A stretch of 64,000 nucleotides of DNA. It comes from Antedon mediterranea. Lineage: Eukaryota; Animalia; Echinodermata. The notes beneath the pieces are model-generated. The model searched no databases and was not told the DNA's origin. It saw only the letters and a program-made list of their open reading frames with translations. This document shows positions 7,657-64,000 of this stretch, one piece after another (position 1 is the stretch's first letter; the number at the start of each line of letters is the position of its first letter). The translations under genes and the position numbers were made by a program. The DNA lies in NCBI RefSeq assembly GCF_964355755.1, contig NC_092671.1, forward strand, positions 38,946,304 to 39,010,303. Reading direction: 5' to 3'.

Positions 7657-7693
<37 letters not shown>

Positions 7694-14400: not shown

Positions 14401-17400
14401 CATATTTGGGCACATCACACTTTTTTTGTCAAAATATTAGACAGAGCTTTAGACTTGAAATTTCTTTTACATTGAAACGCTTTATTTATTATTTTCTTTT
14501 CACTTGAAAACACATAGATGACAAAATTTGCTTTATAAATTCACACTACAGTTTTTTCATTTCAAATATTAATTTAAACATATGTCTACAGTCCTGATTA
14601 ACCCTAAACCTCTGTCTACACTATCAAACTTTATTTGACAAAAATATGTGACGTGCCCATATATGGGCATAATGGTGTCATATCACTACCATATTTGGGT
14701 ATATTAATACCATATTTGGGCACATTCAATTTTTTTGTCAAACTCGTTTGACAGGGTAGACAGATCTTTACACACATCAACCAATCATCACTGAAATAAT
14801 ACACATTAAAATACCAACAATTGTATTATATTTAACAATATTTATTTATTCGTATAGTGTATCATTATTACAACTCTTTACTTGTTTTATATTTATATTT
14901 ATTTTACTTATATAAAATTTGTATGTTATCATAAATGTTATGTGAGCGATTGTGCCTGACATGAATTTACGCAAGGATCAAATAAATCTGAATCTTAATT
15001 ACAGGGCATAATAATGAGATGTCTAGTGGTATAGATGCTGCTGGTGTCATAGCATACAAGGGGTCAAATTCTTACCGGCTAGAAACAATGACTCTTGAGG
15101 AGCGTAAGCAGTTACTCATGTCTACGTGCGGAGTCATCTCAGAACACACAAAAAAAATGTGCACAAAGTAAGAAATATACATAATATTATACTGCTATGA
15201 CTTTATCCAAATTCCCTCACTTGCACTGATGAAGGGCTAGTGTTGCCCGAAAGCTCTGCTAACTTTTCTGGCTATTTACTTTATCGTTTTGATTTAGCTT
15301 TTCGCCTTTTTTTTTTGTATCTCCATTGAGATCCAGCCACTGATACCCACAGCATTGTCATTTTTTTCAGTAATTTGCCTTTGGATTAATATTATACTGT
15401 ATATACATATATTAATTTATATGTTTCTCTTGTCCGTCCCCATCTTGAATACTGTAGTGTTGTGTCTAATTCGTTTTCGTCTGTTCATAGTACCCGTCTT
15501 CAAAGAGTCCAAGATCGTTTTGTTCGTTTTGTGTATTCTACTTGTCACTGTCCTCCTTTGTCTGTCTCTCTTCCTTCGCTTGTCTCTCGTCGTTCTATGT
15601 TCAATCTTCAGTTTTTGTATAAATGTATGAATTCCCGTTTCAATTGTAATTTTATCTCCTTGTTTTCCTTTCATGTTCAGTAAGGGCCTTGATAAAACAT
15701 ACAAATACATACATATAAAATATATAATATGCACAACGATGAGTGGGTGGTTAACAGCAATTTTAGACAAAGATTTACCATATTTCGTAAAAAATGTATA
15801 ATTTAGAAAATTGTCTTCTTTGGCAAAATAAGATATTAAAATTCATTGAGAATACTATAAAAGTTACAAACAATATTGCAACATTTAAAAAAGAATAGAA
15901 GATCTGTAAGTGGAATTATATAAAATTAAATATTTGTTTATTTCAACAATATTTAACGATGGTGGTCCATCCATTTATAGAATTTTTATTTGTACGGTAA
16001 CATTTAGATCAAATCTTCCTTCTTTCCACACAGGTCACTAAGATGTCCCCAGCATACAGATGAACAGAGGAGGGGGGTTCGCAAACAGTTATTGACCCCC
16101 GATACTGATGCTAGAACAAGATTTGAAGGGTATGTTCACATTAGTAAATTTATTAATTTGTTTTGTATTGAAAAGTATTTATAGTTCAATGTAAAAACTG
16201 TCATTATACGTTCTAAAGATTTAATTTAATTATTATTTGGTTTGATGCATGTTGATATAAAGTTTGCAGTACATCACGTATATTTAGTTCTGAAAAGAAC
16301 TGTTGAGTTTCTCGACGTTTCGATCAATATACTTTGATTGTCTTCAGATGTGTGGTTTGGTACAGTTATTTTAAATTAGTGTTGAATAAAGGTCTTAATT
16401 ATATTTCCAGAAAGATTATTAATTACAATTGCATATTTAAACAAGAATATTTCTTACAAAAAACGCTGCTCGCTTATTGTTATTGCTAAGGTCAAGTCTG
16501 GGGGTCACTTCATCACGCCTAGATACTTCAAGTATCCTATTACAAACAAAAACTTCAATGGACTGTTTTGATAATAATTCAATGATTATCTGACAGCGAA
16601 TTATATCATGGGACTCATAAATACCAGAATGCTTTGGGATTTGTCGTTAGACTCTTTTCTCAGCCGTTTTTGGATTCAACAGGTGGTACCAATAAATTAT
16701 AGTGGAGTTTCCATTTTAACAAAAATGTCAAAGTGTAGTACTATAAAGCTGCTTGATTTCATCTAATGAATGAGTCATCTCGTGTGACGTAGCGGGCTAG
16801 AGCAGCAGCGTGAAAATGCAAAATTAAAAAACTAGAATTTTAACATTTTTCTAATTTATTGTACATGTATGAATTTTAACTTTTTTTAAATCTGTTTGAG
16901 ATTTAAAACTGTTTATAATCTTCTTTATTCATCTTTATGTTTGAATGTTGTTTGTATATTTTTGTATTGTTTTTAAGAGGGGCTCTTCACGTCAGCTGTT
17001 AGAGCTACCTTTGTAGACAAAGTTGAATAAATGAATATTATTACGTTGTAGTCTTTATCTTGCTTGCTTACCAATGTCTTTGGTTCAAATCCTGCCTTTG
17101 TCACGCTAGGATTTTCTCATAACAAAAATTCTGGCACAACACTTTATTATCAAGTAACTGCTATTTAATGATCTGTATTGAAGTTAAAAGCTATTAAAAA
17201 TTGTTTTGCAGAGGAACAGGAGAAGGGGATGAAATACAAGTTGACATAGATAGTTATGAAGATGGTGACGGACAAGCACTACGGGATACGTTGAGTAGAT
17301 TACAGTATGAGGCTGCCCCCACTGGCTCCACAAACCCTTCTCCCGCGGACTCAACTTCTACAATACGTAAGTCTGATGATTTCAAAATAGTGGATTATAG

Positions 17401-17937
17401 TATTTACTGTTACTGTTCTTGTAGCCGTCGTCTTCTGACAACAAATGGCCATCATTGATGGATACTTAGTATCAGTTGACTTCACTGCTGGTGAACTCGA
17501 GATTCACATTTATACCGTGCTATACACTTTATTTCATTTTAATTATTGAGAATAAGAGCTACGTTACTTATCAAAATATTTAAATTGTACTGGTGAACTG
17601 GGGACCCTGACAGGTACTTTCCCCTCAGGTCAGGGGATCCCGGAGCTCATCAGGGGCAGGGATGCTCAAATCCCTGAATGGTGCATCCACAGCCTAATGC
17701 TATGAGTGCTTACTGATTATCCATATATTAATCAGTGTAATATTTATATTCTGTTGACAGTGAATTTGTTGCAGCTTGTAGTTTTGTTTTAATAATTTCT
17801 CCACAGATTCAAATGACGGTGGTGGTTCAAAGAAACGTAAAAAGTCATCGAAATTAACCCAACGAAAAAAAACTAAATCCAAAACACCTCTTCATATACA
17901 AATTCCATCGCAGCAAGGGTATGATGCATTAGACTGA
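11438..17937 (+). CDS. ATXN7L3: Ataxin-7-like protein 3 / SGF11 (SAGA deubiquitination module), about 353 aa, 10 coding exons
   Basis: Exons 11438-11500, 12110-12225, 12498-12514 (17-nt micro-exon), 12848-13016, 13620-13693, 14219-14296, 15005-15167, 16034-16129, 17212-17366 and 17807-17937 join in frame. Motifs: [14 protein letters not shown], Sgf11 zinc finger [34 protein letters not shown], and SCA7 domain [27 protein letters not shown]. Confidence 0.95.
15218..15390 (+). mobile_element. Penelope-like terminal-repeat fragment with a minimal hammerhead motif (family P1)
   Basis: Near-identical copy at 55613-55782; reverse partial copies at about 49420-49550 and 33123-33190. Contains CTGATGA-AGGGC..GCCC-GAAAGCTC. 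Confidence 0.7.
15418..15683 (+). mobile_element. CR1-like LINE ORF2 fragment
   Basis: Frame reads [40 protein letters not shown]. Confidence 0.8.
16250..16355 (-). mobile_element. Penelope-like terminal-repeat fragment with a hammerhead motif (family P2); second copy at 48370-48458
   Basis: Shared GTTGATATAAAGTTTGC.GTACA.CACGTATA flank and a minus-strand CTGAAGA..TCAA/TTGA..CGAAACGTC motif. Confidence 0.65.
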
Positions 17938-19106: not shown

Positions 19107-20235
19107 GAAAGAAAGCAGTTTTTTAAACACTCTACATCAAGACAACTATTTCAATCGATTTCATAGTCACATTATGATTGTTTGATGATGTAATTTAAAT
19201 GTGAACAATGTAATGAATTCTATGTTGGAATGTTAACCAATGAATTAAAACATTTCAAGCAAATATATTTATGATATCATGTGTTGTGTATATGTTGGAT
19301 TTTAGTATCAATTATGTGATTTGAAGAGGTAAAAAAAGAACACAATTCAAAGTGTGTATGTTTTTACAATTTTTTTATTTCTACAATGTTTTACGAGGGT
19401 TGTACATCCAGGGAGGTATACAAATAATTGTTTTTATACCTCCCTGGTCCATCCAGCCGAAGCTGATCATTAGGGACCCTCACAAATATACAATATGACA
19501 TAAACATGTAACAATTGAAATTAAATTAAAATAAATATAATCTAAATAAACAATATAAAATAATGGTCAAAAATTTTTTATTTATTTATTTTTTTCAATT
19601 TTGAAATATACTTTTTCATTTTGTTCACTTCATGAGCATTTGAAGATTTGTTAATAATATAAAGAAGAAATACATATTGGCTATATGTAAAAGAAAGTAG
19701 ATGGTGGAACACTGCCCTAAAAAAAGAGGTCATAATAGTCATCTACCGGATAACATAAACTTAAAATAAAATGAAATAATTTCCTTTAACCTTTATTACA
19801 TGCATGTACGATGATTAAAAATCGAAACTTTGCTCTAAGAAAAACAAAGTATGTTATTGAACCAGGGAGTAGCATTATTATCAACTCCCTGATTGAACAT
19901 TTTAAAAGGGCAAATTGGTATTTCAAAGTGCATTACTTGTGTACCATGACTAAGCAACAACAAAAGAGTTATTGTTTTAAAAAGGAAATAAATTTCTGGC
20001 AACAATTTACTTTTACATAAAATGAAAAACATTATGAACACTTCCCTGGGAAGACGTCATAAGTACCCAACTACCGGATATAAGAAGATTACCTTGTTCA
20101 TGCCCTGGATGGTATCTGTGTTTTCCAAAAAGTTAAAATTAAAGACTACTTATATAATAGTAGGCTTTATAGCTCTCACGTAATGAAATGTGATCTTGTT
20201 TCGGACACAACCCAGATCAGTAAAGAAGAATAAAG

Positions 20236-22939
20236 ATGTCTGTTTCGACAACCTCATCGCAAGATTCACAGAATGCAACGAATGCAGTACCACTACCAGC
20301 TGCACAACAAGAGACATGTGCCGAATGTATAGGCCTAGACGATGTTGTATCTAAAGAACGTCGACTATTTAGCAGCTCCGATCATAAACCGATTAGTTGT
20401 GTGGAACATCAAGAAAATATGATATCTAAAAGGTGTGAGAAAATGTACACTAAGTGGAAACGAAGCAGTCGACCCCTTGTATCTTCGAACGACCCGCTTT
20501 CAGAAATAAGTACAGATGGTAAGTTTACCATTGGACTCATTGGTAAAGAAGGTGGTCATCTTGAGATAAGAAATGGAGACATTCAGCTTTATATTCCGCC
20601 AGGATCATTGTCAGACGTTGACGAAGAATATGTATTTATGTATGCAGACTCAGTCCATCATAACTTGGTTAAATATGATGTTATCATTTGCGGCCCTCCT
20701 GGTCTGCAATTTAATAACTCAGTTTTGTTAAGATTCCCAAACCCAAAATCACAAGATGATGAAAGAAGCTTAGTGAAACTCAGTGTTCAGGAACTTGGCA
20801 AACCTTTGGAGTGGAGGTCGCTTGACACGACAACCGATGGTTATTTCTTTTTGGAAGATGGCAAAATAATGCTGCATATGAACCACTTTACCGGAATCAA
20901 AGTTAATGCTGTAGTACCCGCAATTCAGCAGACAGTGGAAGAAAAATGCAAAGCCGTCTACGTTACCGCGTTTTTAGAACAGCAAGACCAACACTACTTT
21001 TTGTTTCGAGTATTCTGCAGTACATATTGTGCTTTAAAGGTAAATAATACTTTATGCTATCTACAGGCCATCCAACTTCTGCATCCATAAAATAGTCCTC
21101 ATTTAGGCTAAAGTAATGTTTGAGGAAACAGACAACTCAATCTTTGCTCTATTTTCAAAATTTAAAGTTTAAATTTAATTAACAAATGTATAAATCTTAT
21201 AAAATTATTTCAGCTTGTGAATACAGAAGAATCCGAACGTGGATCTCGAAAAATGGGAAACCCAGTTAAAATGGGGTTGTTTCAACCACAAGACGAGGTC
21301 ACTTTACAAATGTTTGGTTGTGTGGGCTGCCTAGCGGAACCAACTCACTATGTAATTACACATTTTTGTTATATAACTATTAGATAGTCCTACTTTTCCT
21401 AAGTTTATGGAGATCGTGGTAGATTTGTGACTTTTTGTCCCTAAGTACCGCGTATATCAGTAGATAGATAGTCTATGGGTGATAGACCTACACATTTCAT
21501 TTATTTGTTTTTTCTGTACATTGAAAACTATAAAGACAACTGCAAAGATAACCAAACATTTTTATAATCATTTATGTTCTTTTTTAAGAGCATCTGTGTC
21601 GATGACGTCTTGTCTGATTTGGGATATATCCATCGCCAATTTGTGTTGGAAAGTTTAAGTACTACAGCTTGCCTTAAGTTCCAAGTTGATGTTGGTAGCA
21701 AGACTATTCATATTGAACGAGTTAAACTAGCTTTCACTAAGGCACATAACACACCCAGTAAAACGTTTTATAAGGTACGTTATGTATTTAATTACACTAT
21801 AAATATGCTTACTCGCCATATCTTAAATGTAAGACCTATTTTTATTTTATTGGTTTCGGAGATTTATTTCGATGATATTTCGATACGGTACATGCCTAAA
21901 TAATTATTATCGTTTTATATTTATTATATTCTTGTTTCGCTTTTAATTATCATAAAATTATACCAGTTATTATTCAATTTTTTTCTTCCTTTTTAAAAAT
22001 TTCATACGCATCCAACAGCGAGTAAATCGGCAATTAGGCCCTACAGGACGGATAAACTCATTTATCGTGCTTATAAACTTAGTCTCGTTTGAGTCTTATG
22101 GAGTTGAGTTTAAAGTGTCCGTTACAACCCTGGCACTAGGTCCGGACTGAATCCTGGGCCTTGGGATTGGAAGGCAAGCAAACTACCAAGCTAGCAGCTC
22201 AAATATTTAGGATATTGAATGAGCCTGGTGTGTGACTTGTAGCAATGGCACAGAGTAGGCCCTTATTATTATTCTTACCATTCAATAGTCGAGTGACTCA
22301 TGGTGTTATAAATTAGTTTATACCTCCACGAGTGGCCTACCACAACAACATACAACAATATACCTCCATGATACAAGCAAGTAAATGTTGTTGACTCTGA
22401 TACAAATAGCAATTAAACATTATATTTTAGTATTCGTACGTGTATTATGTTTACAATAGATTGAAGTACCTGATCACCGTATTTACCAGGAACCCGAATT
22501 TACATGTTCACCGCTGAAAACACACATTCTATCACCTGAAATGCGTAGGGAACTGTCAATGGAACTTGATGTTTTAACAATAGTTCAGAGAAAAGGAGAG
22601 CCTAAACCGAGGCCTTGTGACTATCGAGGCTTGGCAGAATTAATGGGAATGTCCGCAAGATATATAAATTGGCTTGAAGCTCCTAAAAATTGTCGAACAA
22701 GTAGTAGTCCGACAATTCTGCTGCTAAACACGTGGGAAATCGAGTGTAGCAAGAGGCAATTATTGGTACCGAATGCTTTAAAAGAGCTGGAAATACTGCT
22801 AATTAAACTTGGGAAAAACGCCTGTATTGAAATTGCCCAAAGGGGCAAAATTGCAAGAATGAGACAGTTCAAACATCGCCCTAGGGTCTATTCTGCACCA
22901 CCCAGTATGTGCGTGAACCCTTACAAAGATGTTCTTTAA
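20236..22939 (+). CDS. ZU5-UPA-death domain protein (UNC5CL/PIDD-like), copy 1, about 535 aa
   Basis: Exons 20236-21039, 21214-21351, 21589-21774 and 22460-22939, all phase 0. ZU5: GLIGKEGGHL..IQLYIPPG..VIICGPPGLQF..LHMNHFT. Death domain: RRELSMELD..DYRGLAELMGM..SPTILLLNTWE. The UPA assignment is positional (beta-rich region between ZU5 and the death domain). Confidence 0.85.
22138..22200 (-). mobile_element. Degenerate tRNA-derived SINE head; relatives at about 52696-52745 and 62697-62750
   Basis: The minus strand shows A/B-box-like segments around CCTTCCAATCCCAAGG. It is too degenerate to be a true tRNA. Confidence 0.5.
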
Positions 22940-24683
22940 AATTCTGTGACAATCCGAATGTCTAACCTCTGTAAGATTTCCTGTAGAGTTTTGTTTTGTA
23001 GATTCTCTATAGGCCTCTAGCAAATATAAAATTGTAGGCCATACAATCATTTTAGATTAGTACTATATTATCTATGAAATTCATAGAAATTGCCATACTT
23101 TAAAAAAAAATTCTTTAAACATTAAGCACTAACTGTTCCTTATATGCTAGGATACATTGATGTTTTGTATAAGTATAGGCATATCTCAATTGTGTTCAAA
23201 TACTTATCCTACTGTGAATTAATATTAATAATTGCTGATTTGTTTACAGATACAGATACAGATAACTTTTATTGTCCAAATAAACTGGAAATTGCATTTG
23301 CTCACTTATCACATTTTTTTTGATAAGTCAAAAAGATATCAACCGATTACTATGTCGAATATCTATGGTTGCATAGGTATTAATTAGACCTAATAATTGG
23401 GGAGTTTGTTGATTAGTAGGTTGTTATAATAATAAAATAGTTTGAACCACCAGGAACATTGGAATATAGGCCTACTTTGAATGTAGGCTAAATGTAATTT
23501 TGATTGAATCAACCGTTTTATAAAACATTTTCAATTCGACTTAACACGTAAAATATAAATTTAAAAAAAGAATGTACAGTGAATGTAAATATTGTACAAT
23601 ACTGTAGAGCTAGGATAGACCGATAATTAGTATCTTTAACTGGCGCACGTTTTGTAGCATAAAAAGACAATAAACATAATACGATATTTGACATTAAGTT
23701 TACGAAGATGTTTTACTTTCCCACTAATGTGCTTTACTCATTCGTAATATTACATAATTTGTGATCGTGTGATTTTATCTGCGACCGAACTAATAACTAA
23801 CTGAAGCGTGAACATGTTTTTGTGCTTTCAACCAAGGCAATCTAACCACAACAGGACAATGGAAGAACTCGTAACATTCCTTATTAGATATTTTTATGAT
23901 ATTCAGCATCCTGTTGTTAAATTGCTTGGAGTTGGAGTTATAAATAGTTAAATGCTACTAATAATCTTTAGTTAGTATTGTTTGTATAACAAATGGTGTT
24001 ATAGTAGGCATACGTTATTAAACTTTGCTCTCAGCGTCCAATCTTTCCCCCTTTCGATTGTTGCATTGATGTCTGTTGTAGTATTCTGCAGTACAAAAGG
24101 AAAGATCAGTAAACAGGAGAGAAAGGAGGTAAAGTGTGGGGGGGGGGGGGGCCGCTTTGGAATCAGAATAGCAATGAATAGGAAGATATATTGATATAGT
24201 GTCCTTTGAGTACGAGTAGTGGTGAACACCACAAAAGAGAAAAAAAAAACAGGAGAAACTCGATGAGAGTAAAGTTTAATAACATGGGCCTACTGTAACA
24301 CCATTGTTATACCATAGAGGCAATAAGTGTTATTTCCTCCATGCTCATACTAATGGTTGAGTGAATCATAAGTAAACATTGATACAAATAATGCTATCTA
24401 TAGTAGCATTAAACTATACAATTATTTATAGCACAATATTGTACTTTCCAAAAAGTAAAAAATCAACTAAAAATAATAAGTGGTCATTGCTGTTCAAATA
24501 AAGTAATACTTGTTCTTTTCACCTCGGTGGCTCTATTATGTTTGTCTTCATTGTTGTTAGTTCACAGAATTATTGTTGTTTTGGAAAGGAAACAGCATCA
24601 TATTCTGTGTTTTCTCAGTGAAGTTAAAATTAAGTTTCAATATAACGACATTTACAGGGATTTAAACTCAGATCATAAGCAAT

Positions 24684-27600
24684 ATGTTTGTTTCGACAAC
24701 CGCGTCGCAAGTTTCCAAAAATACATTGAATGAAGAAGTAGCTGCACAACAGAAAACATGTACAGAAGAACGACTATTTAGTAGATATTGTGATGAAAAA
24801 CGACTCAAGTATGAGGGTATAAAGTATCAAGAGAATATGATAGCTAAAAATTGTGAGAAAATCTACACAAAATGGAAACGCATGTCTTCAAGCGGTAAAT
24901 CGTTTTCAGATTTAAGTAGAGATGGAAAGTTTACAATTGGATACATTGGTAAAGAAGGTGGTCATCTGAAGCTAAGAAATGGAGACATTCAGCTTTATAT
25001 TCCGCCAGGAGCAATGGCAGACGTCGCCGAAGGTTATGTATTTATGTATGCAGACTCAGTCCATTATAACTTGGTTAAATATGATGTTATCATTTGCGGC
25101 CCTCCTGGTCTGCAATTTAATAACTCAGTTTTACTAAGATTTCCAAACCCAAAATCACAAGATGATGCGTTGCCTGAAAGACCCTCAGTGAAACTCAGTG
25201 TCCAGGAACTTGGCAAACCTTTGGAATGGCGGTCTCTTGACACGACAACCGATGGTTCCTTCTTTTTGGAAGATGGTAACATATTGTTGCATTTGAACCA
25301 TTTCACTGGAATCAAAGTTGACGTAGGAGTACAAGCTGAGCAAATCCCAACAACGGCCCCAGATCAAGGAAACCTTATCTTCCTTTCTACTTTTTTGGAA
25401 CATGAAGATGGACGCTACTTTTCATTTAGAGTACACTGTAGTACCTATTCTGCTTTGGAGGTAAATATGGCGTAACAGCAAAACGATAATAACTATACAA
25501 AACAGTATTATAGCATATAATATAACAATTGCATAAACAGTAACTTTCTATTAATCTACAATGTTGTTATTTTCAGGATGTGAACAAAGATGAATTAGGT
25601 TCAAAACAAATTGGGAAGCCAGTTAAAATGGGTTCTTTTCGAAAACAAGATGAAATTACCATTACAATCATGAATTGTGTAGACTGTAAAGTGGAACCAT
25701 CTGACTATGTAATTATACATTTGTATACTTATTAAAAGATTATGTTTTTGGACATGAACTTCCACTTTGATTAGCATTTTATTCATTATATGGGTACATT
25801 CACAACGTTGGTTAATATTAATATAGGTCTTTCCCGCCGATCATTGTGTTTGGAATTTCATTATAATACTGCATAGGACTACTCCAAAATTGTTTGCACT
25901 AAAATCTTTCCAATATAGAATCTCTCATCTCTATATTTTTTATTTTATCCATGGTATACATTTCCTATTTATTTTAGCAACAATTAGTAGTATAACATAG
26001 TATTCAGTTGAATAAATCTGACTTAATATTTTATTTTGTGTTAAGAAACATGAGCTATGATTTTTTTTTCGTAATATAGGTTTCGTTTATAATGGTTTCT
26101 TCTCTATTTGTTATGGGTGTGGTTACGTTTTTGTCTGTTTCTTGGAACTTAAACTAAATAAAATAATTAACCGTACTCTATTAAATTTTAAGAGCATCTG
26201 TGTCAGTGAGGTCGTGTCAGATGTTGATAATCATATCCACCGTCAATTTGTGCTGGAATGTTCAAGTAACTTAGCTTTCCTGAAGTTTCAAGTTAATGTT
26301 GGTGGCAAGACTGTTCATATGGCACGAGTGAAAGTTGAACCTGATAAAGCACCAACGGCTGTTAACAAGTTGTACTTACAGGTCAGTTTGAAGTAGATTG
26401 TGTCCGTGATCTACATCGTCTTGCCAATGTTTATATACGAACCATCAACCTATTTTAACAATTACCGTATATGGCCTACATTGGACAGATTATCACCTTG
26501 TTCTCTGATAGTTTATTTGCTCTTATCGACGTATTCGCAGTTCATAATTATGCATTTATTAACTAAAAGAGAACATTTATTAAAATAATCCTTTTTCAAT
26601 TTTCAAACTTGCAAAGAACAAGTCATTACATCGGGGAAAAACGTTAGACAATGACTAAACATAAAAGAATTGTGTTTCATAAAATGATTTTTAAATTCTC
26701 AAATTTTTTAAAAATGAGTAGTAATTAATGATCATGTATAAGGAAATTAAATATTTTATAACGATGTTTGGAAACAAAAGGTTATTTAGACCAAACGTCT
26801 TTGTATTAGCTTTGTAAACTTCTTTTGTAAGTGTATTATAGAAAAATATAAGAAGATTAATGAAAAAAGGAGGTAATACGGAATACAAAGTGAATTTACA
26901 AGATTAAAAAAAAGTTAATGATGAAGTTTATCAAATTGTAATGACATTTGAAATTAACATTATTATTTTATGTTTTTGCCGAAATGAATAAAAAAAATTT
27001 AAAATAAAATAAAATAACAAAAATAAATAATAAATAATATTATTTTATGTGATTACATGTAAGATGATATTAATGTGAATAAAAGTGGTGTTTAGGCCAA
27101 ATAAGAGAGAGAAAAAAAGTAGTAATAAATATATATATATTTATATAAGAAAATAATAAATATTTGAGTTACAATTTTGATTGTATTCGTAATACCGTTG
27201 TATCCAAATCATCATACTAAAATACAAAACTGAAAGCAAATTCGGTAAGAATTAAATATTTTGATTGTTTAATATCTTTAGGATGAAGTCGAAGAATTTC
27301 ACGATGAGTATCAAGAATCAGAATTCACACCTTCACCCCTGAGTCGACCAATTCTAACAACAAAGATGCGTCGGGAACTGTCAATGCAACTTGACATGCC
27401 GAGAATAGTACAGTGGAAAGGAGAATCTAATGCCAGGTATTGTGACTATCGAGGCCTTGCAGAGTTGATGGGAATGTCAAAAGAATTCATAGACTGGATT
27501 AGAGCTCCAAAAAATTGTCTAAAAAGTAGTAGTCCGACAATTCTGTTGCTAAACAAGTGGGAAATCGAGTGTAGCAAGAGGCAATTGGTGACATCTGATG

Positions 27601-27770
27601 CTTTGAATGAACTAAAACAATATCTTATTAAACTTGGACAACATTTCTGTATTGAGATAATAGAAGGTAACATTCCAGGAAATAAGTATAACTTTCGGCC
27701 ATCGAAAAGACGCAAGGAGATTGTTGCTGATAATAATCCACCCCAACGTCGGTGGTCGGCAGTGCTGTAG
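24684..27770 (+). CDS. ZU5-UPA-death domain protein, copy 2, about 528 aa
   Basis: Exons 24684-25460, 25577-25708, 26193-26381 and 27282-27770. Same intron positions and motifs as copy 1; reading frame intact. Confidence 0.85.
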
Positions 27771-28325
27771 GTCCACTGGAATGGTGATTTGCTCAAATTT
27801 AAACATATTTAAATAGGCAGCTAAAAAACGTTTTTGCTCCAAACAGGGTATGCCATACAAGTCAAGACAGTCTAACAACATTGCCTTACAAATAAAAGTT
27901 TATCTATGAACTGAATTTGTTTAATAAAGTAGCAATTAAAACAAAATTAACTCACAGTCAAATGTAGTAATCATGTTTACTTATTAAATAAAATATTGTA
28001 TAATAAATGATTTAATACCACAATGAGTACAGTAGTATCTAGCTTTTTATTGACTAGGTAAGACAATATTAGTATAAGTTACCGTTCTTTTATTATTAGT
28101 TTTATGACAATTTTCTATTCTAACTGTGTCAATAAAACACTGCAGTATTAATCACAATTGTACGTCATTCAGATCTATACGTCTATTGGCAACATTCAGG
28201 ATTTTACATCATGTGATTTATTTTACTTCATTTATTGGATCTAAATATTCACATGGTTTTGCACACGTGAATTGATTTAATGCCACGTTCTTGAAGTGTA
28301 TTATGAAATTGTTGATTGCCATTGC

Positions 28326-28395
28326 ATGCGCCTTGAGCACTCTTGAGTGGTATGTGCGCTATAAAAATCCTGTAATATTATTGTTATTATTATTG
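28326..28395 (+). repeat. L2-type LINE/SINE 3' tail; reverse copies at about 35855-35920 and 41732-41787
   Basis: GCGCCTTGAGCACTCTTGAGTGGTATGTGCGCTATAAAAATC followed by (TTA)n. Confidence 0.65.
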
Positions 28396-28980
28396 CATTA
28401 CCATTGTAATTGTATTATGCCTATTGCTGCATGTGGAGCTAAGGGCTAAATATTTACCACCAAACTTAATTCTAAAATACCCTATACTTTACTCATGTTA
28501 CCGGTAGGCCTAGTATATTTTTAACCTTGACTGATTTATTTAATAAACTATCCTTAATACTCTTAATTCTTATTTCTATCAATTATACTATTGTTAATAA
28601 CTGTGTAGATTTCGTATTTATTTGGCACTACATTTTCTGTAAATAATTATATTAGTAATAATTACTGTCTAGATCTCGGCGGAATTCTTTACGATTGAAC
28701 AAGAGGATCGAATCGAAAATCGAAGAATGTACTCAGAATATATATGTCTGGAACATTTTGTCATTATTGTATGAAATCTAATTTACTAACAATTTAATTA
28801 AATTTCAGTTGAACCATTTATTGGTTCCTTACTGTGAGTTTGTACGGTTATTTTGATAGGTCTCTCAGATGCAGCTTGTATAAATTATAATGACGTAGGT
28901 GAAACACTTAATATACACCGTATTAAAGGAAATGGTGTGATTGTTAAAATACGACCACACACATCCTCAGTTTTCAAATA

Positions 28981-29503
28981 GTGGACAACCACATTTATTT
29001 AAGACAATGCCTAAATAGAAAGTTTGGAAAATGTTCTACTACGACTAAATGTTATCTATTTAAGAGTTACTGTGTCAGCATGTACTGTTCAACATTATGG
29101 GGTAGGTATAATAAGAGCACTCTGAGATCACTGATAGTATTTTATAACAATGCATTACGTTTGTTGCTGAAGCAGCCTAGAAAGTGTAGTGCAAGCATGA
29201 TGTTTGTCTTAAATGACGTCCCATCCTTTGATGAATTCATTAGAAAATCTGTTTTTAGTTTTAATAATCGTGTGAACGCGCGCAAGTGGTAATTCCTTGA
29301 TCATGGCCATCAATCGCCACTTTCTTAATGTGTCAAGAATGCACATACAATGGATTGCCTTGTTGCATTGACTTTATATATTTATATATTTTTGTTTTTT
29401 GCTATGAGCTCTTAGATTAAGATTTGTTTTTCTTTCTTTTGCTATGGATATGTTATGTCACCGTGATATTCCGAAATAAAAAAAGATGAATGAATGAATG
29501 AAT
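28981..29503 (+). mobile_element. 5'-truncated non-LTR retrotransposon (L2-group-like) between ZU5-DD copies 2 and 3
   Basis: LFKSYCVSMYCSTLW..YNNALRLLLKQPRKCSASMMFVLNDVPSF is an ORF2 C-terminal signature. It ends in AATAAA followed by (TGAA)n. Confidence 0.75.
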
Positions 29504-30319
29504 GCCAAGCGATGTCCAAGTAAAATTAAAATATTGATTTTCTGTTTATTTGATTTACTCTATTCTTTCGGCAAGGATTACTTGATATACAGGTCTTTTT
29601 TTTTTTTAAATATAATATTTGTATCCCGTTACTATTAACCACTTGAAGTATTCACCTTATAATACTCAATAAGATAATGGTTTTTCTCATGGTGCAGCTT
29701 CAAATGTCTCAAGATTTAGGAATATAACTAAACATGCAAGTAATGTATTTTGATTCATTTTTATTGAATCAACCATTAGGCCTATATACCTTATTAGCCT
29801 ATAGTTACAAACATGAGTGTACAACGAAAAAAAAGTACAGTGAATTTAAATGTAGAAAAGGTTCAATTTCAATTCAATTCATCGACATTTTTATTCCATA
29901 ATCAAAATAAAAACTCATGTATTTTAATCAATCATTGGACCTAAACCATTCTTATTATTCTTGATGGCCTACGTGAGCACTGGGGAAAGGAACGAACAAT
30001 AGGAATGAAGAAAGTTGGTAGTATAAAGTCCAATCACATGATGGGCGGTATACAGTACCATTGTTATGATAATATTCGGTACGTAGTTTGAATAAATATT
30101 TGGGTTATTGTTGGGTATTGGGTTTACACATAATGCTATTTATACTAAATATGTATTTTCCCAAGGCAAAATATGAACTAATAATAAGTGGTATAAATGC
30201 TGTTTGTGTCAAAACATGCAGAGATACAACACATCAAACTGTATGTTTCCGATTCAACATCGCAGGTTTCTAATGATTTGAATTTCAAATTACCGTAGCA
30301 GCATAGTTATCAACACAAT

Positions 30320-32872
30320 ATGGAAACACATGGGGTATCAAAAGAACGAAGGTTTATAAGAAACTCGAATAGATATGTTAAGTGCAACAATGCAGAATAT
30401 CAAGAAAATATCATTTCCAATAGATGTGAGAAAATGTACAAAAAGTGGAGACCCAAAATGAGAAATCGGCTGCTTGACCAATCGTTTTCGGAGATTAGTA
30501 GAGATGGAAAGTTTACAATTGGATTTATTGGCAAAGAAGGTGGTCACCTGAAGCTAAGAAATGGAGACATTCAGCTTTATATTCCGCCAGGAGCAATGCC
30601 AGACGTCGCCGAAGGTTATGTATTTATATATGCAGACTCAGTCCATCATAACTTGGTTAAATATGATGTTATTATTTGTGGTCCTCCTGGTCTAAAATTT
30701 AATAACTCAGTTTTACTAAGATTTCCAAACCCAAAATCACAGGATGATGCGTTGCCTGAAAGACGCTCAGTGAAACTCAGTGTCCAGGAACTTGGCAAAC
30801 CTTTGGAGTGGAGGTCTCTTGATACCACAACCGATGGTTCCTTCTTTTTGGAAGATGGTAACATATTGTTGCATTTGAACCATTTCACTGGAATCAAAGT
30901 TGACGTAGGAGTACAAGCTGAGCAAATTCCAACAACGGCCCCAGATCAAGGAAACCTTATCTTTCTTTCTGCTTTTTTGGAACATGAAGAAGAACGCTAC
31001 TTTTCATTTAGAGTACACTGTAGTACCTACTATGCTTTGGAGGTAAATATAGCGTACAGCAAGACAATCCTATCAGTTTACTAGGCATATAATAAGCAAA
31101 CAGTGTAATGTAAAAAGTTTTAAAAAATGCAAGTTTAAATTGTGCCTTTGTTATTTTCAGGATGTGAACAAAGATGAATTAGGTTCAAAACAAATTGGGA
31201 AGCCAGTTAAAATGGGTTCTTTTCGAAAACAAGACGAAATTACAATTACAATCATGAATTGTTTAGACTGTAAAGTGGAACCACCTGACTATGTAATTAT
31301 TATTACTGTTGGACTTTTTGACATATTTTTTTTTAGCAGGATAAACTCTTAATGCTAAAGTGAAATCTAGGCCAATAAATTCTCCCTTTAATTTATTATG
31401 TAGGTCTACTTTCAACATCAGTTGAAACAATTGCTGTATGCATTCAGAGCGTTGGGTTTTATCAATTATAGATTCATTTTCAATTCATCGTGAAATTGGG
31501 AATACTAGCAACCCTACCGCTTTAATACTTCAAACCCTACCGTATCCTATGAACATTTAATCTCGTGTGTCTGTATTTCATTTTATCCATGAGCATACAA
31601 ACTTCTATAATTCTAACAGAGTTAAAAACAATTGTTTTTGATCAATGGATTAAACTTATTATTTTATAGCGAGGATTTTCAATATAGTTTAACATTTTCT
31701 TCTCTATCTGTGTGTATGGTTGAGGTCTGTTTTGTTTCATGGGACTCAGAAATAAATAAGAAAACCCATGTCTTTAAATACCGTATGTCTTTACACTTTA
31801 AGAGCATCTGTGTCAGTGACGTCGTGTCTTTTAATGATCATATCCACCGTCAATTTGTGCTGGAATGTTCAAGTAAAAGTAACTTAGCTTTTCTGAAGTT
31901 TCAAGTTAATGTTGGTGACAAGGCTGTTCATATGGCACGAGTCAAAGTTGAATCTAATAAAGCACAGACTGCTGTAAATAACAGACTGTACTTAAAGGTC
32001 AGTTTGAAATATCAACCTGTTTAGTTTGCTTTTAAACTTATTTTAGGTCCATAATTATGCCATTTTAATAATAATTAATACATAATACAACATGTAGGCC
32101 TACTGGTAATGCGCGCTACATAAATATAATAGTCCTTTTTAAAGAAAAAATCTACATAATGTCAAGCGTAAAGTGTTTCACCATGGAAGTATAAACCTCC
32201 ATTGGTTTCATAAAGTTTTAAAAACTACACGATCTTAGATAACAACGATCAATGTTTATTGTAGTCTTATCATCCTGATTTCATCTATATCATACACAAT
32301 CACAAACTGAATGTAAATTAAATATAAGAATCAAATTTTATTCAATTTGTGCTTAATATACTTAGGATAAAATAGACGAATGTCACGAAGAGTATCAAGA
32401 AGCTGAATTCACACGTTCACCTCTGAGTCGACCAATTCTAACAACAAAAATGCGTCGGGAACTTTCGATGCAACTTGACATGCCGAGAATAGTACAGTGG
32501 AAAGGAGAATCTAATGCCAGATGTTGTGACTATCGAGGCCTTGCAGAGTTGATGGGAATGTCAACAAAATTCATAGACTGGATTGGAGCTCCAAAGAATT
32601 GTCAAAAAAGTAGTAGTCCAACAATTCTGCTGCTAAACAATTGGGAAATCAAGTGTAGGAAGAAGCAAATGGTGAAATCTGATGCTTTGGAAGAATTAAA
32701 AAAATATCTTATTCAACTTGGACACAGTGCCTGCATTGAGATAACAAGTCATATTGTGGAAAAGAAAACGTACATGCCATCAGTGAAGATGCGTGAGAAG
32801 ATTAGTCCTGAGAAGAGAGACAAACGTCGTTGGACATATTCAGCACCATCTTCAGTGAAGCTTTTGCTGTAG
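30320..32872 (+). CDS. ZU5-UPA-death domain protein, copy 3, about 518 aa, N-terminally shortened
   Basis: Exons 30320-31042, 31161-31292, 31803-31997 and 32366-32872. The ancestral start position reads CTG (30239), with an in-frame TAG at 30296. The next in-frame ATG is at 30320. Confidence 0.78.
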
Positions 32873-34233
32873 GCCTACTACTACTGGAAAGTTGAGTTGT
32901 GGTAAGGCTTAATGTAAAACAAAAACATTACTAGACTATATGCAAATTTTGCTCCAGAAATAATATCTTGTCCATGGGAGCTAAAACCGATGATAGCAAA
33001 CATTAATGATTTTACCGTACACAGGCGAAAGTTTTTCCAGTTGTGACTACAATCGAACATGGATATTATTCTTGTAATTGTATTTTACCTCTTTATTTTT
33101 TATGTATATATATTTGTTTATAAATCCAAATGCGAATTACAGAAAAAATGCTGTGGGTATCAGTGGTTGGAGTCTCAATTAAGATAAAACAATTATAAGC
33201 AACTACTAATTGATTGAAATGATTGGACTACTTTCACAAGGCCGATCAGGCCTCGTTAAACAAAATATAAATATATGCCTAGTAGCTTTTATTAAGCTCT
33301 TTCTAATGTAAATTATCAAACTTTATGTGACAAAAAACGTGATTTGGCCATATATGGACATGATGATGTCACATCACTCACTCATATTTAGTCACATCAC
33401 ACTTTTTTGTCAAACTAGTTTGATAGTGCATGGTGTAGAGCTTTAAGTTAGGTATTTGTCTCTAATAGTATTATCATGGTGTTTCTGTGATCATTACAAT
33501 TAGTTATCTTGTCGGAAAATATAAATAAATGTATTTTACCTAAAATATATACATGACTTGGTGTTCAGTCAGATTACAGCCTGAAGATCATAGTCAATAT
33601 TGACTATGCTGGCTAATCAGCTAATCATGGCTTTTTTAGTATACATTATGACTAATTTTTGACCGGACCATATTTTTGCGGCCAAAACAGTCCTACTGCC
33701 CGGACCGATTTTATCCATTTTGTTGACATTGTCATTGTGTACCATTGGACTATACAATTATTTATAGCTCCATAAATGTACTTTCCAAACAGTCAAAAGT
33801 CACTAAAAATAGTCCTCTATAATATTTTTCACTAAATAAGGTAATATCAAGTTATTTTGGTGGTTCTATTATGTGAATGGTCTTCATGAATTCAAAAGAA
33901 GTATTGTTGTTTTTGGAAAGAGAATCATACAACCGTGGAAAACGTCATAAGCTACTGTAGCATCAGAAAAGCTAAGTCATACGCTGTGTTTTCCCAGTGA
34001 AGTTAAACATAAGCTGCAACAGTACAGTTTCGTTCCTCCAACTGATGCCAGTCGCATCCAAGAGGCAGTCTTCTCTAGCATCCAAATATATGCTGGGTCC
34101 GACTGTTAAAGGGCTTCCTTGACTGGGTTAGCTTCTTTGCTTGACTAGGATCGCACTGAAGGAGATTGCTTAGATTGCAATATATAGTTCACTTCAAAGA
34201 TTCAGACAACTCGAATCGTAAGCACTATTTAAG

Positions 34234-36548
34234 ATGTCTGTTTCGGCAAGTTCACAGGTTTCCAGCAATACCACCTCGAACTCGAACGGAGAAGTAGGCC
34301 CAGCTGCACAGCAGGAGACATGTGACGAAGAACGACTATTTAGCAGATATTGTGATGAATAACAATTTAATTGTGAAGGTGTAGAGTATCAAGAAAATAT
34401 GATATCTAAACGTTGTGAGGAAATCTACATGAAATGGAAACGGGGCAGCCGGCCATGTGTGTCTTTAAGCGAACAATCATTTTCAGATTTAAGGGGAGAT
34501 GGAAAGTTTACAATTGGACTTATTGGTAAAGAAGGTGGTCATCTAGAACTGAGAAATGGAGACATTCAACTTTATATTCCTCCAGGAGCAATGCCAGACG
34601 TCGCCGAAGGTTATGTATTTATGTATGCAGACTCAGTCCATCATAACTTGGTTAAATATGATGTTATCATTTGCGGCCCTCCTGGTCTGCAATCTAATAA
34701 CTCAGTTTTGTTAAGATTCCCAAATCCAAAATCACAAGATGATGAAAGCAGCTCAGTAAAACTCAGTGTTCAGAAACTTGGCAAACCGTTGGAATGGAGG
34801 TCTCTAGACACCCCAAACGATGGTTTCTTCTTTAAAGACGATGGTAACATAATGTTGCATTTGAATCATTTCACCGGAATCAAAGTAGGAATACAAGCTA
34901 ACGCTCTACAGGCTAAGGCTATTCAGGCAGAGACCGCCGATAAAAGAAAAACTATCTTTGTTTCTACTTTTTTGGAACAGCAAACCCAACGTTACTTTTC
35001 GCTGAGGGTATACTGCAGTACACATTCTGCTTTAAAGGTAAATAAACCATATAATATAGAAAGATAATATAATATAAATCGATTTATATTATAGATTGGT
35101 AGAATTCTGAAGTATAACGGGAAGAAGGATGCTGGATCCGTACTAACAACAGGCCCTTTCTATTTCTCCATTATATTTTAGGATTTGAGCAAAATTGAAA
35201 TCAGATCTAAACAAATTGAGAATCCCGTTAAAATTGGTTCATTTCGAACACAAGAAGACGAGGTTACTTTAAGAATCAAAGATTGTGAAGGTTGTCAAGC
35301 GGACCCATCTGATTATGTAATAATATACATTTAGGCCTATTGTTATTGTTTTTGATTGTAAATTCCTATTGTGTACAATGTATTAACTGTCACACTTTAA
35401 ATGTAGAATTCTAATTCAAGTAAGATATAGGCCCACCTCTTCACGATAACAAGTCGTGTTTTGTGAGAAAAGCAATGAATACATAATGTTTTAAAAATAT
35501 TGTATTTTAAAAGTTTCTGTGTCGGTGACGTCGTGGCAGATGTTGAACATATTCACCGCCAATTTGTTTTGGAACTTTCAAATAACGTCGAGGCATTTCT
35601 GAAGTGTCAAATTAATGTTAGTGACAAGAATGTTCATATGGCAGGGGTGAAAGTTACAAAGAAGTTGCAATTATTCTCAGAGGTCAGTATAATACTAATA
35701 GTATGACTGATTTCTACTACCCAATCTAGTATCTCCGTATATCCGTAATCCATAAATTCCTAGTAATTATAACAGGGTCACCTATACAATTAATATTAAA
35801 CAGGATTATTACCAGCCGCTTTAAGAATGTTCGATTTGCGGTTCATCGACTATTTATTATAATAATAATAATAATAAGATTTTTATAGCGCACATACCAC
35901 TCCAGAGTGCTCAAGGCGCATTAAAAAAATAATATGTTTTTGAAAAATGTATAATACACTATACAACATGTTAAACAATAACATTGTATTGCAAATTAAA
36001 TAAGAATTTTAAATGAATTTAACAATTTTGTATATTTATAGAATGAAGATGAATTGTATGATGAGTCTCAAGAACTCAAAGAATTCACACGTTCACCCCT
36101 GAGCCGACCAATTCTAACTATAGAAATGCGTCGGGAACTTTCAATTCTACTTGACGTGCTGACAGTAGTACAGTGGAAAGGAGAATCTAAACCCAGATGT
36201 TGTGACTATCGAGGCCTTGCAGAGTTGATGGGAATGTCAGCAAAATTCATTGAATGGATTGGAGCTCCAAAAAATTGTCAAAAAAGTAGTAGTCCGACAA
36301 TTCTGCTGCTAGACGATTGGGAAATTAAGTGTAGAAAGGAGCAATCTGATGCTTTGAAAGAACTGAAACAATATCTTATTAAACTTGGACACAATGCCTG
36401 TATTAAGATGATAACAAGTCATATTGCAAAAAAGAACACAAACATTTCATCAGTGAAGAGACGTGATAAGAAGATGAGTCTTGATAATAAGAAAGGCCAA
36501 CGGCGTTGGACATATGCAGCACCCCCTTCAGTGAAACATTTGCTGTAG
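34234..36548 (+). pseudogene. ZU5-UPA-death domain gene copy 4, probably decaying
   Basis: Exon-homologous segments 34234-35037, 35182-35316, 35512-35682 and 36042-36548. In-frame TAA at 34360-34362 where copy 2 has AAA. The exon-3 acceptor is AA instead of AG (35510-35511), and the conserved GLQF reads GLQS. An ORF from ATG 34399 remains possible. Confidence 0.65.
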
Positions 36549-36986
36549 CCCTATACTGGAATGTTGATTGGGTAAAATGTCAACAGACTTGATTAGGCCA
36601 TGGATAAAATCCATAATTAGGCAGATAAAAAAACATGTACTAGGCCTATCAGTTTTTGCACAAACCGAGTATGACGTATACATTGCATTATTGCATTTAG
36701 GATAATGGTAGCAAATGATTGTCAGACAGGCCTAAAGCTCTGTCTACACTATCAAACTAGTTTAAAGAACAAAAAAAACCTGATTGCCTAAATATGGTAG
36801 TCATGTGCTCAAAATATGGTAGTGATATGACATCGTCATGTCCATATATGAGCACGTCACATTTTTTTGTCACATAAAGTTAGGATATCGCACGCGCGTA
36901 AAGGAGTTTGAGTCCGATGACTAAAATCGAATACAGAGTAGTGAATATCCGTGAATAAGTGCATTTTGTAGGATTTTCCTAGATAC

Positions 36987-37192
36987 TAAATAAATCATTT
37001 TATTTGACAAATCCAGTAAAGAATTTACTCGCATTCTTTAGCTTTTAGCATTCACCTAGAAACAATTACAACAGATTTCCAGGAAGTCGCAGTGGACCGG
37101 ATCAATTGTGATCAAGCCATCAGCCAAGATGGCGAAAGCTAAGAATGTGAGTAAATTCTTTACTGGATTTGTCAAACAAAATGTTTTATTTA
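36987..37192. repeat. Inverted repeat of about 60 bp enclosing a promoter-like spacer
   Basis: 36987-37045 is the near-perfect reverse complement of 37135-37192. Confidence 0.9.
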
Positions 37193-37863: not shown

Positions 37864-38031
37864 AGCTCCGCCTACACTATCAAACTTTATGTGACAAAAA
37901 AAAATGTGATGTGGCCATTTTATGGACACGATGATGTCATAATCACTACCATATTTGGGCATATAATCACTACCATATTTGGGCATATCACACATTTTTT
38001 GTCAAACTAGTTTGATAGTGTAGACAGAGCT
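37864..38031. mobile_element. MITE family A copy (upstream of EPG5)
   Basis: Both TIRs present, with TAA flanks. Confidence 0.85.
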
Positions 38032-63556: not shown

Positions 63557-64000
63557 GGCACCTGTATGTTGATAATGTGCACCTGTATGTTGATAATGTG
63601 CACCTGTATGCTGATAATGTACACCTGTATGTTGATTATAATGTACACCTGTGTGTTGATAATGTACACCTGTGTGTTGATAACGTACACCTGTGTGTTG
63701 ATTATAACGTACACCTGTGTGTTGATTATAACGTACACCTGTGTGTTGATTATAATGTACACCTGTATGTTGATAATGTGCACCTGTATGTTGATTATAA
63801 TGTGCACCTGTATGTTGATTATAATGTACACCTGTGTGTTGATTATAATGTACACCTGTGTGTTGATAATGTACACCTGTATGTTGATTATAATGTACAC
63901 CTGTATGTTGATAATGTACACCTGTATGTTGATAATGTACACCTGTATGCTGATAATGTGCACCTGTATGCTGATAATGTACACCTGTGTGTTGATTATA
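63557..64000. repeat. 21/24-bp minisatellite running off the window end
   Basis: Unit ACACCTGTATGTTGAT(TAT)AATGT. Confidence 0.95.

What the first reader, a model, noticed from the sequence alone, without database searches (positions are those of the whole stretch)
20236..36548. Tandem array of four cytoplasmic ZU5-UPA-death-domain genes: a candidate lineage-specific immune or cell-death signalling system
Seen: four same-strand paralogues with identical 4-exon, all-phase-0 structure, lying between two conserved housekeeping genes. Each encodes a variable Cys-containing N-terminus, ZU5, a UPA-like region and a death domain resembling those of UNC5/MyD88. No signal peptide, transmembrane segment, LRR or ankyrin region is visible. 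Known: ZU5-UPA-DD is the signalling module of UNC5, ankyrin, PIDD1 and UNC5CL. Inference: a birth-and-death array of stand-alone modules like this fits diversifying intracellular sensors or adaptors acting through death-domain assembly.
Basis: partly seen in the sequence, partly recalled or inferred. Interest (0 to 1): 0.85.

Follow-up and report, generated by a model that had tools for sequence, protein, structure and literature searches.

The report
Feather-star self-cleaving death-domain gene cluster
Three intact genes and one probably broken copy, side by side in a feather-star genome, encode soluble proteins with the signalling module of UNC5 receptors plus a conserved motif predicted to make them cut themselves, so they likely act as switches that release a death domain for immune or cell-death signalling, a design shared with many unstudied proteins of echinoderms, acorn worms and amphioxus.

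Summary
The array is real but holds three intact genes, not four. g1-g3 splice to RefSeq proteins of the crinoid Antedon mediterranea (535, 528, 518 aa). g4 has an in-frame stop at codon 43 and has lost its exon-3 acceptor. ZU5, UPA and death domain are confirmed by Pfam, AlphaFold2 (pLDDT 80) and fold matches to UNC5B (Z 19.3) and CARD8 UPA (Z 10.8). No membrane segment is present. In relatives the third residue is T, C or S in 123 of 124 HF rows; true UNC5 receptors lack it. Best reading: self-cleaving, CARD8-like switches that release a UPA-death-domain fragment. Cleavage, trigger and partner are untested. One run shows splicing of two introns. Anneissia has one annotated copy on the scaffold carrying the same neighbour gene. 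The copies are mosaic, with no sign of positive selection (dN/dS 0.37-0.59). Stand-alone ZU5-UPA-DD proteins are common in invertebrate deuterostomes. The scan had no look-alike by sequence, but noted other ZU5-UPA-death-fold genes in other genomes.

The parts
20236..22939 (+). g1, intact gene, exons 20236-21039, 21214-21351, 21589-21774, 22460-22939; 535 aa (RefSeq XP_071943522.1); HF|T codons 20884-20892
24684..27770 (+). g2, intact gene, exons 24684-25460, 25577-25708, 26193-26381, 27282-27770; 528 aa (RefSeq XP_071941603.1)
   Evidence: the exon 2-3 joint is on a contig of run X1 that carries g2 letters by depth arithmetic
24684..24893 (+). g2 N-terminus: disordered residues 1-33, then helix 38-70 with the crinoid motif QENxIxxxCExxYxxW
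   Evidence: model; alignment
24930..25322 (+). g2 ZU5 domain (residues 83-213)
   Evidence: Pfam PF00791; model strands; ankyrin ZU5 Z 12.6, rmsd 2.9, 133 aligned
25299..25307 (+). His206-Phe207|Thr208, predicted self-cleavage site before the last ZU5 strand
   Evidence: invariant in 7 of 7 crinoid database proteins and in g4; between strands 199-206 and 209-213; aligned to QLG of UNC5B
25371..26336 (+). g2 UPA domain (residues 230-351; end of exon 1, exon 2, most of exon 3)
   Evidence: beta-sandwich in model; CARD8 chain 7jn7_C Z 10.8, rmsd 2.7, 117 aligned; NLRP1 chain 7crw_B Z 11.3, rmsd 4.6, 123 aligned
27360..27665 (+). g2 death domain (residues 393-494), followed by a disordered tail
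   Evidence: Pfam PF00531 E 4.7e-5, above cut-off; helical bundle in the model
30320..32872 (+). g3, intact but N-terminally shortened gene, exons 30320-31042, 31161-31292, 31803-31997, 32366-32872; 518 aa (RefSeq XP_071943524.1); the homologous ATG at 30243 is out of frame; HF|T codons 30881-30889
   Evidence: the spliced X1 contig across intron 1 carries g3-type letters at 3 of 3 listed places
34234..36548 (+). g4, probable pseudogene: exon homologues 34234-35037, 35182-35316, 35512-35682, 36042-36548; TAA at 34360; exon-3 acceptor reads AA at 35510-35511; HF|T codons 34867-34875
   Evidence: no g4 protein among the 7 hits of 262-968 aa or the 6 hits of 455-2000 aa
24403..24641 (+). non-coding element upstream of g2, homologous to 33739-34020 upstream of g4 and weakly to 30124-30205 upstream of g3; likely promoter or 5' UTR
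   Evidence: local score 177 against a shuffled maximum of 44; many indels that are not multiples of 3
11438..17934 (+). ATXN7L3 (SGF11) coding span, upstream neighbour and synteny anchor

Best explanation
The three intact genes encode soluble ZU5-UPA-death-domain proteins that are predicted to cut themselves at HF|T and likely work as held-shut switches that release a UPA-death-domain fragment for immune or cell-death signalling. Steps: (1) Shown: architecture of short disordered N-terminus, helix, ZU5, UPA, linker, death domain and tail, with no membrane segment. (2) Strongly inferred: Thr208 attacks the Phe207 peptide bond (N-O acyl shift, as described for PIDD1, Nup98, CARD8 and NLRP1), leaving two fragments held together by the last ZU5 strand. 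(3) Inferred by analogy with CARD8, NLRP1 and UNC5B: the N fragment keeps the C fragment quiet until it is degraded or displaced. (4) Inferred: freed UPA-DD oligomerises and recruits a death-domain partner (IRAK/MyD88 type towards NF-kB, as reported for UNC5CL, or RAIDD/FADD type towards caspases). The trigger is unknown. The locus likely expanded from one gene by tandem duplication with gene conversion after the Antedon and Anneissia lines split, and g4 is likely decaying.
For: Architecture: (UNC5B cytoplasmic domain: Foldseek E 4.9e-16; VIA Z 19.3, 336 aligned, rmsd 8.2). Motif: NHFTG in 7 of 7 crinoid database proteins. In the 132 stretches of other proteins that cover the site, 126 have HF, and the next residue is T (90), C (19) or S (14) in 123 of the 124 where it is present. 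These are the three nucleophiles named in PMC3210808 (passages read). The two hits with a true UNC5 ectodomain read QL at this site, as does UNC5B. The site lies before the last ZU5 strand, where PMC3210808 places the CARD8 cut. The model also aligns to self-cleaving GAIN domains over residues 41-217 (CD97 Z 10.0, rmsd 3.7, 150 aligned). ZU5 is the most constrained folded domain (dN/dS 0.14-0.30 in 6 of 6 pairs). Expression: two GT-AG joints at the predicted introns occur in run X1 and not in runs X2 or X3. Duplication history.
Against: No step of the mechanism was observed. The search profile contains NHFTG, which favours hits with the motif. The death domain is divergent: 2 of 4 pass Pfam's cut-off as exons, 0 of 6 as whole proteins. 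The model does not superpose as one rigid body on the closed UNC5B structure (rmsd 8.2-9.9), so autoinhibition is not shown. There is no excess of amino-acid change at the N-terminus (dN/dS 0.19-0.95), where a pathogen bait would be expected to show it. No NF-kB-type site was found in 19200-37000 (0 of 2 strict and 0 of 6 loose matches in the window). X1 is only guessed to be RNA and also covers non-coding DNA.
Confidence: 0.55

Rival explanations
1. The proteins self-cleave, but serve developmental or housekeeping signalling (a soluble modulator or decoy of UNC5/p75-type death-domain signalling, for example in nerve growth, arm loss or regeneration) and not pathogen sensing.
For: The best structural match is UNC5B, and the best death-domain hit of the family profile is that of UNC5B (E 1.2e-16), ahead of MyD88 (5.8e-13) and FADD (9.1e-10) (profile of 44 proteins, not of the crinoid domain alone). 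Purifying selection throughout. Few copies: 4 loci here, one close paralogue elsewhere in Antedon, two genes in Anneissia.
Against: Copy turnover, mosaicism and a broken copy, and a long branch to all other families. Relatives swap N-termini freely (Ig, furin-like, galaxin-like, RhoGEF-SH3, none), a pattern that PMC8195603 (passages read) ties to immunity in marine invertebrates.
Confidence: 0.22
2. The array is mostly redundant duplication: one copy keeps the ancestral job, and the others drift under relaxed selection and gene conversion without distinct roles.
For: g4 is broken and g3 has lost its original start. Death-domain dN/dS among g2, g3 and g4 is 0.64-0.97. Exact tracts of 44-101 nt are shared between copies. 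Anneissia has one annotated copy on the syntenic scaffold.
Against: g1-g3 keep open frames at 61-78% amino-acid identity with whole-gene dN/dS 0.37-0.57. Spliced contigs point to both g2 and g3. This rival concerns copy number and is compatible with the best mechanism for the ancestral gene.
Confidence: 0.15
3. The genes are membrane-anchored UNC5CL-type proteins whose transmembrane exon lies upstream and was missed.
For: 27 of 85 full-tail relatives have a hydrophobic N-terminal window. A hydrophobic frame lies at 24503, upstream of g2, and an AG lies 12 nt before the g2 ATG in frame (-11 sequence, 89).
Against: All 7 crinoid database proteins, from two separately annotated genomes, lack such a segment (highest hydropathy 0.88-1.25). 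In-frame stops lie 15 and 21 nt before the g1 and g2 ATGs. The hydrophobic frame sits in DNA whose g4 homologue differs by frame-breaking indels, and such windows occur at 0-2.9 per kb in the seven non-coding stretches scanned. An X1 contig runs unspliced from 24540 through the g2 ATG (it could be DNA).
Confidence: 0.08

Closest known systems
UNC5CL (vertebrate UNC5C-like protein)
   Same: One ZU5, UPA and death domain without the UNC5 ectodomain, and self-cleaving according to PMC10084454 and PMC7883297 (passages read). Its IRAK-activating role is known here only from the title of Heinz et al. 2012 in reference lists (paper not held).
   Different: UNC5CL keeps a transmembrane helix (PMC10084454); these proteins have none.
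CARD8 (and the FIIND of NLRP1)
   Same: Disordered N-terminus, ZU5-UPA that cleaves before the last ZU5 strand, C-terminal death fold, no LRR or NACHT (PMC10359095 and PMC3210808, passages read). UPA fold match Z 10.8.
   Different: Death domain instead of CARD, HF|T instead of SF|S, and no Pfam FIIND match. The variable N-terminus is short. DPP9 control and protease sensing are untested.
UNC5A-D cytoplasmic supramodule (UNC5B, PDB 3g5b)
   Same: Same three domains in the same order; best sequence and structure match.
   Different: No Ig, TSP1 or membrane part. UNC5B reads QLG at the HF|T site, and canonical UNC5 is not seen to self-cleave (PMC10084454).
PIDD1
   Same: HF|S cleavage at the end of ZU5 that frees a UPA-DD fragment (PMC3210808, PMC7883297, passages read).
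   Different: No LRRs and one ZU5 instead of two.
Invertebrate deuterostome 'UNC5C-like' proteins in RefSeq/UniRef (Ptychodera, Saccoglossus, Glandiceps, Branchiostoma, Patiria, Asterias, Acanthaster, other crinoid genes)
   Same: ZU5 with HF[T/C/S], UPA and death domain. 21 of 85 full-tail hits start with Met, have at most 150 residues before ZU5 and no hydrophobic window (2 of the 21 look truncated, and one named hit is a short isoform).
   Different: The crinoid subfamily is a separate long-branch clade (support 99, quick tree) at about 16-23% identity, with its own N-terminal motif. I found no paper describing these proteins.

Membership tests
ZU5-UPA-DD supramodule proteins | ZU5 domain | tested here: met
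   Pfam PF00791 above cut-off in 4 of 4 loci; ankyrin ZU5 Z 12.6
ZU5-UPA-DD supramodule proteins | UPA domain after ZU5 | tested here: met
   No Pfam UPA hit, but model residues 230-351 match CARD8 and NLRP1 UPA chains at Z 10.8-11.3, and the family profile aligns to UNC5B across UPA
ZU5-UPA-DD supramodule proteins | C-terminal death domain | tested here: met
   Pfam PF00531 E 4.7e-5 to 8.2e-4, 2 of 4 above cut-off; helical bundle aligned to the UNC5B death domain
ZU5-UPA-DD supramodule proteins | closed ZU5-DD contact (autoinhibition) | tested here: inconclusive
   whole-model rmsd to 3g5b 8.2-9.9; model coordinates could not be inspected
UNC5 netrin receptors | Ig-Ig-TSP1 ectodomain and transmembrane helix | tested here: not met
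   no such Pfam hit in 6 of 6 proteins; hydropathy at most 1.25; the two true UNC5 hits branch apart
UNC5CL | N-terminal transmembrane helix | tested here: not met
   transcript 5' ends not mapped
UNC5CL | self-cleavage in ZU5 | not testable with these tools
   motif HF|T present at the right position; the cut itself needs an experiment
UNC5CL | orthology with vertebrate UNC5CL | not tested
   no vertebrate UNC5CL sequence was available to the tree
UNC5CL | IRAK / NF-kB activation by the C fragment | not testable with these tools
   needs a reporter assay
CARD8 / NLRP1 FIIND sensors | disordered N-terminus before ZU5 | tested here: met
   pLDDT under 50 for residues 1-33 of g2
CARD8 / NLRP1 FIIND sensors | SF|S motif and Pfam FIIND | tested here: not met
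   HF|T; no PF13553 hit
CARD8 / NLRP1 FIIND sensors | C-terminal CARD that recruits caspase-1 | tested here: not met
   death domain, not CARD
CARD8 / NLRP1 FIIND sensors | activation by degradation of the N fragment; DPP9 restraint | not testable with these tools
   analogy only (PMC10359095)
PIDD1 | LRRs and two ZU5 domains | tested here: not met
   one ZU5 stretch, no LRR
MyD88 | TIR domain | tested here: not met
   no TIR hit; only the death domain of the family profile resembles MyD88

The most novel reading that the evidence does not exclude
These genes belong to a large undescribed class of invertebrate-deuterostome CARD8-like tripwire sensors that signal through a death domain: pathogen proteases or protein-turnover stress destroy the N fragment, and the freed UPA-DD nucleates a Myddosome- or PIDDosome-type complex. 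Functional degradation sensing would then not be limited to vertebrate inflammasomes and could feed NF-kB or apoptosis.
Probability: 0.25. Interest if true: 0.8.

Novelty: new variant of a known kind. Interest (0 to 1): 0.45.

Why it matters
The four-copy array is an ordinary tandem duplication. The wider point is that sea stars, crinoids, acorn worms and amphioxus carry many ZU5-UPA-death-domain proteins that are auto-labelled 'UNC5C-like' or 'netrin receptor' yet keep a self-cleavage motif that true UNC5 receptors lack. The anchor-free crinoid proteins are minimal versions of this module. They allow a direct test of whether cleave-and-release signalling of the CARD8/NLRP1/PIDD1 type works through death domains in invertebrate immunity.

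Tried and rejected
No whole genome was held, so copy number and synteny rest on database rows. Anneissia ATXN7L3 and the Anneissia paralogue LOC117103200 both list a longest contig of 1,594,789 bp, which suggests one scaffold but does not show adjacency. A first fold with 6 sequences was poor (pLDDT 44.6), though it still hit UNC5B; it was replaced by a 44-sequence model. Complex prediction of ZU5 with the death domain gave no answer (score 0.00; the alignment was not used). No RNA holder was listed; X1 is a guess. X1 gave no joint and patchy cover for g1, which is no evidence of silence. g2 exon 4, g3 and g4 were not examined with reads in their own coordinates, so the g4 lesions were not checked in other individuals. 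An X1 contig matches g4 letters at 8 of 8 places in exon 1, but it is unspliced and could be DNA. Rescue of g4: from ATG 34399, skipping exon 3 or using the AG at 35591 keeps the frame (426 and 456 aa) but removes part of UPA; the 6 other AGs tried give early stops. Positive selection: rejected at gene level; single regional values above 1 (linker, tail) rest on 28-38 codons in poorly aligned parts. Cys-rich N-terminus: rejected. Upstream membrane exon: not supported. The tree is the quick version, not the finished careful one; support for the four copies as one group is only 72, and it used 42 rows chosen from about 150 hits. The EPG5 name was not confirmed. Heinz 2012 and Liao 2014 were not held. 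Supplements of Kaur 2021 and Zhang 2012 were not read and may list these proteins.
Full report
Observation. The window holds four paralogous loci on the + strand between 20236 and 36548, and tblastn finds no fifth. Exon bounds were set from splice landmarks. g1 (20236-22939) and g2 (24684-27770) have four coding exons with GT-AG phase-0 introns and open frames of 535 and 528 codons. In g3 the ATG that matches its sisters (30243) is out of frame; the frame opens at ATG 30320 and gives 518 residues. These three products equal RefSeq proteins of Antedon mediterranea letter for letter, all named 'uncharacterized'. g4 has an in-frame TAA at 34360 and AA in place of the exon-3 acceptor. Its frame-keeping alternatives lose part of UPA, and no g4 protein came back from two database searches. 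The array is therefore three intact genes and a probable pseudogene.

Domains. Pfam finds ZU5 in 4 of 4 first exons and Death in 4 of 4 last exons, 2 of them above the cut-off; it finds no UPA. An AlphaFold2 model of g2 from 44 sequences has mean pLDDT 79.7 and pTM 0.68. It shows disorder at 1-33, a helix at 38-70, ZU5 at 83-213, a beta-sandwich at 230-351, a disordered linker, a death domain at 393-494 and a disordered tail. Foldseek ranks the UNC5B cytoplasmic domain first (E 4.9e-16), then ankyrin ZU5-ZU5-UPA-DD and NLRP1 FIIND. VIA-align gives UNC5B Z 19.3 (336 aligned, rmsd 8.2), CARD8 UPA Z 10.8 (117 aligned, rmsd 2.7) and GAIN domains up to Z 10.0 over residues 41-217. The family profile aligns to UNC5B over all three domains (E 2.7e-68). 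Hydropathy never exceeds 0.96 in g1-g3 or 1.25 in the other crinoid proteins. The N-termini are not Cys-rich.

The cleavage motif. All 7 crinoid database proteins and g4 read NHF|TG at the end of ZU5, between strands 199-206 and 209-213 of the model. PMC3210808 (passages read) places the CARD8 SF|S and PIDD1 HF|S cuts at this position, names Ser, Thr and Cys as the usable nucleophiles, and reports that the fragments stay associated. The HMMER search of 1.84 billion representatives gave 181 hits, 150 listed. Of the 147 non-crinoid-subfamily proteins then held, 130 had a stretch over the site (132 stretches; 17 proteins had none and were dropped). These read HFT 90, HFC 19, HFS 14, HFA 1, HF at a cut end 2, other 6. 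Two of the six have the full UNC5 ectodomain and read QL, as does UNC5B. The profile favours HFT, but exchange almost only among the three nucleophiles suggests selection for the chemistry. Cleavage itself was not observed.

Distribution and history. Close relatives are crinoid only: one more Antedon gene on another contig and two Anneissia genes. They form one long-branch clade (support 99), with the two Anneissia genes as sisters (99) and the four array copies on one side of a weak branch (72) in a quick tree of 42 rows. Informative sites switch from a g2+g3 grouping in ZU5 and UPA to g3+g4 at the C-terminus (79 sites, permutation p 0.0006), so the copies are mosaic. Whole-gene dN/dS is 0.37-0.59 in 6 of 6 pairs, lowest in ZU5 (0.14-0.30) among the folded domains: purifying or relaxed, not diversifying. 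Distant relatives (16-23% identity) come from acorn worms, amphioxus, sea stars and other crinoid loci (20 named). They put Ig, furin-like, galaxin-like, RhoGEF-SH3 or nothing in front of the same module. Of 85 with a full tail, 27 have a hydrophobic N-terminal window and 21 look stand-alone. The ESM Atlas lists a 493-aa ZU5-UPA-Death cluster first (score 0.95), then DTHD1-named and FIIND-Death clusters. The architecture is thus not lineage-specific; the subfamily is.

Expression. No run on record as RNA was listed. On 19600-26990, run X1 (guessed RNA) shows GT-AG joints at intron 1 and intron 2 of g2 coordinates, absent from X2 and X3. The intron-1 contig carries g3 letters at 3 of 3 listed places; the intron-2 contig carries g2 letters by depth arithmetic. 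This supports splicing of g2 and g3 in one sample. No joint to upstream exons was listed.

Mechanism. Shown: architecture, motif position and conservation, some splicing. Inferred: self-cleavage at Phe207|Thr208; restraint of the C fragment by the N fragment; release by degradation or displacement as for CARD8 (PMC10359095, passages); oligomerisation of UPA plus death fold as for NLRP1 and CARD8 (bioRxiv 10.1101/2020.06.17.156307, abstract); recruitment of a death-domain partner as for PIDD1 (PMC7883297, passages) or UNC5CL (PMC10084454, passages; the primary paper was not held). Confidence 0.55. Against it: no N-terminal positive selection, no NF-kB-type site near the genes, and a whole-model rmsd of 8-10 to the closed UNC5B form. 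Rivals are a developmental modulator (0.22), redundant duplicates (0.15) and a missed membrane exon (0.08).

Comparison and novelty. The proteins work most plausibly like CARD8 or UNC5CL but are members of neither by the features tested: no CARD or SF|S, no membrane helix. They are not UNC5, PIDD1 or MyD88. PMC8195603 (passages) notes ZU5/UPA fusions in marine invertebrate immune expansions and predicts their self-cleavage; PMC3482391 (passages) notes a ZU5 expansion in sponges. My searches found no paper on these crinoid genes or on stand-alone HF|T ZU5-UPA-DD proteins of invertebrate deuterostomes; the library lacks most subscription papers, and supplements were not read. The scan's own notes had no look-alike by sequence or place, but list other ZU5-UPA-death-fold genes in other genomes.

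Noticed in passing
window 37078-37155 (+): A CAGGAAGT box followed by ATG, six codons (MAKAKN) and a strong donor GTGAGT, 1.65 kb before the next gene's ATG. It looks like an orphan first exon; no matching second exon was found. It recalls the start of ribosomal protein L29 (from memory only).
   Followed up: partly
window 38800-64000 (+): Large multi-exon gene starting MAEAVRP at 38800, read as EPG5 from recalled motifs; not confirmed.
   Followed up: partly
window about 2171-9900 (-): WDR60 / dynein-2 intermediate chain 1 gene; the exon at 2171-2662 hits human WDR60 (E 1.5e-7). It lies head to head with ATXN7L3.
   Followed up: partly
window 18118-19121: 16 copies of a 63-bp repeat, 97% alike, just after ATXN7L3, giving spurious open frames on both strands.
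   Followed up: no
window 61121-61428, 63559-63996, 56430-56577: Further minisatellites (21-bp and 16-bp units) in introns of the downstream gene.
   Followed up: no
window e.g. 2175-2241, 14369-14418, 37939-37988, 44532-44580, 49833-49892, 54899-54947: A dispersed element with an internal 21-bp repeat occurs many times in both orientations; probably a MITE-like mobile element (sequence).
   Followed up: no
window 28948-29292, 15390-15683, 8828-9355 (+): Short frames that resemble the 3' ends of LINE-type ORF2 (recalled resemblance; no Pfam hit). The first lies between g2 and g3.
   Followed up: partly
window 21990-22200: High-copy repeat inside g1 intron 3 (very high contig depth in 3 of 3 runs).
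   Followed up: no
g2 residues 38-70 (window 24795-24893): The helix before ZU5 aligns with the helical part of GAIN domains, and many distant relatives seem to have an amphipathic segment at the same place (read by eye), so the cleaving unit may be a small GAIN-like helix-plus-sandwich.
   Followed up: partly
P0018, P0020, P0080, P0030 (one search hits): Relatives fuse the same module to furin-like/growth-factor-receptor repeats with a hydrophobic segment, to galaxin-like repeats, or to RhoGEF-SH3: candidate self-cleaving death receptors of acorn worms and other invertebrates.
   Followed up: no
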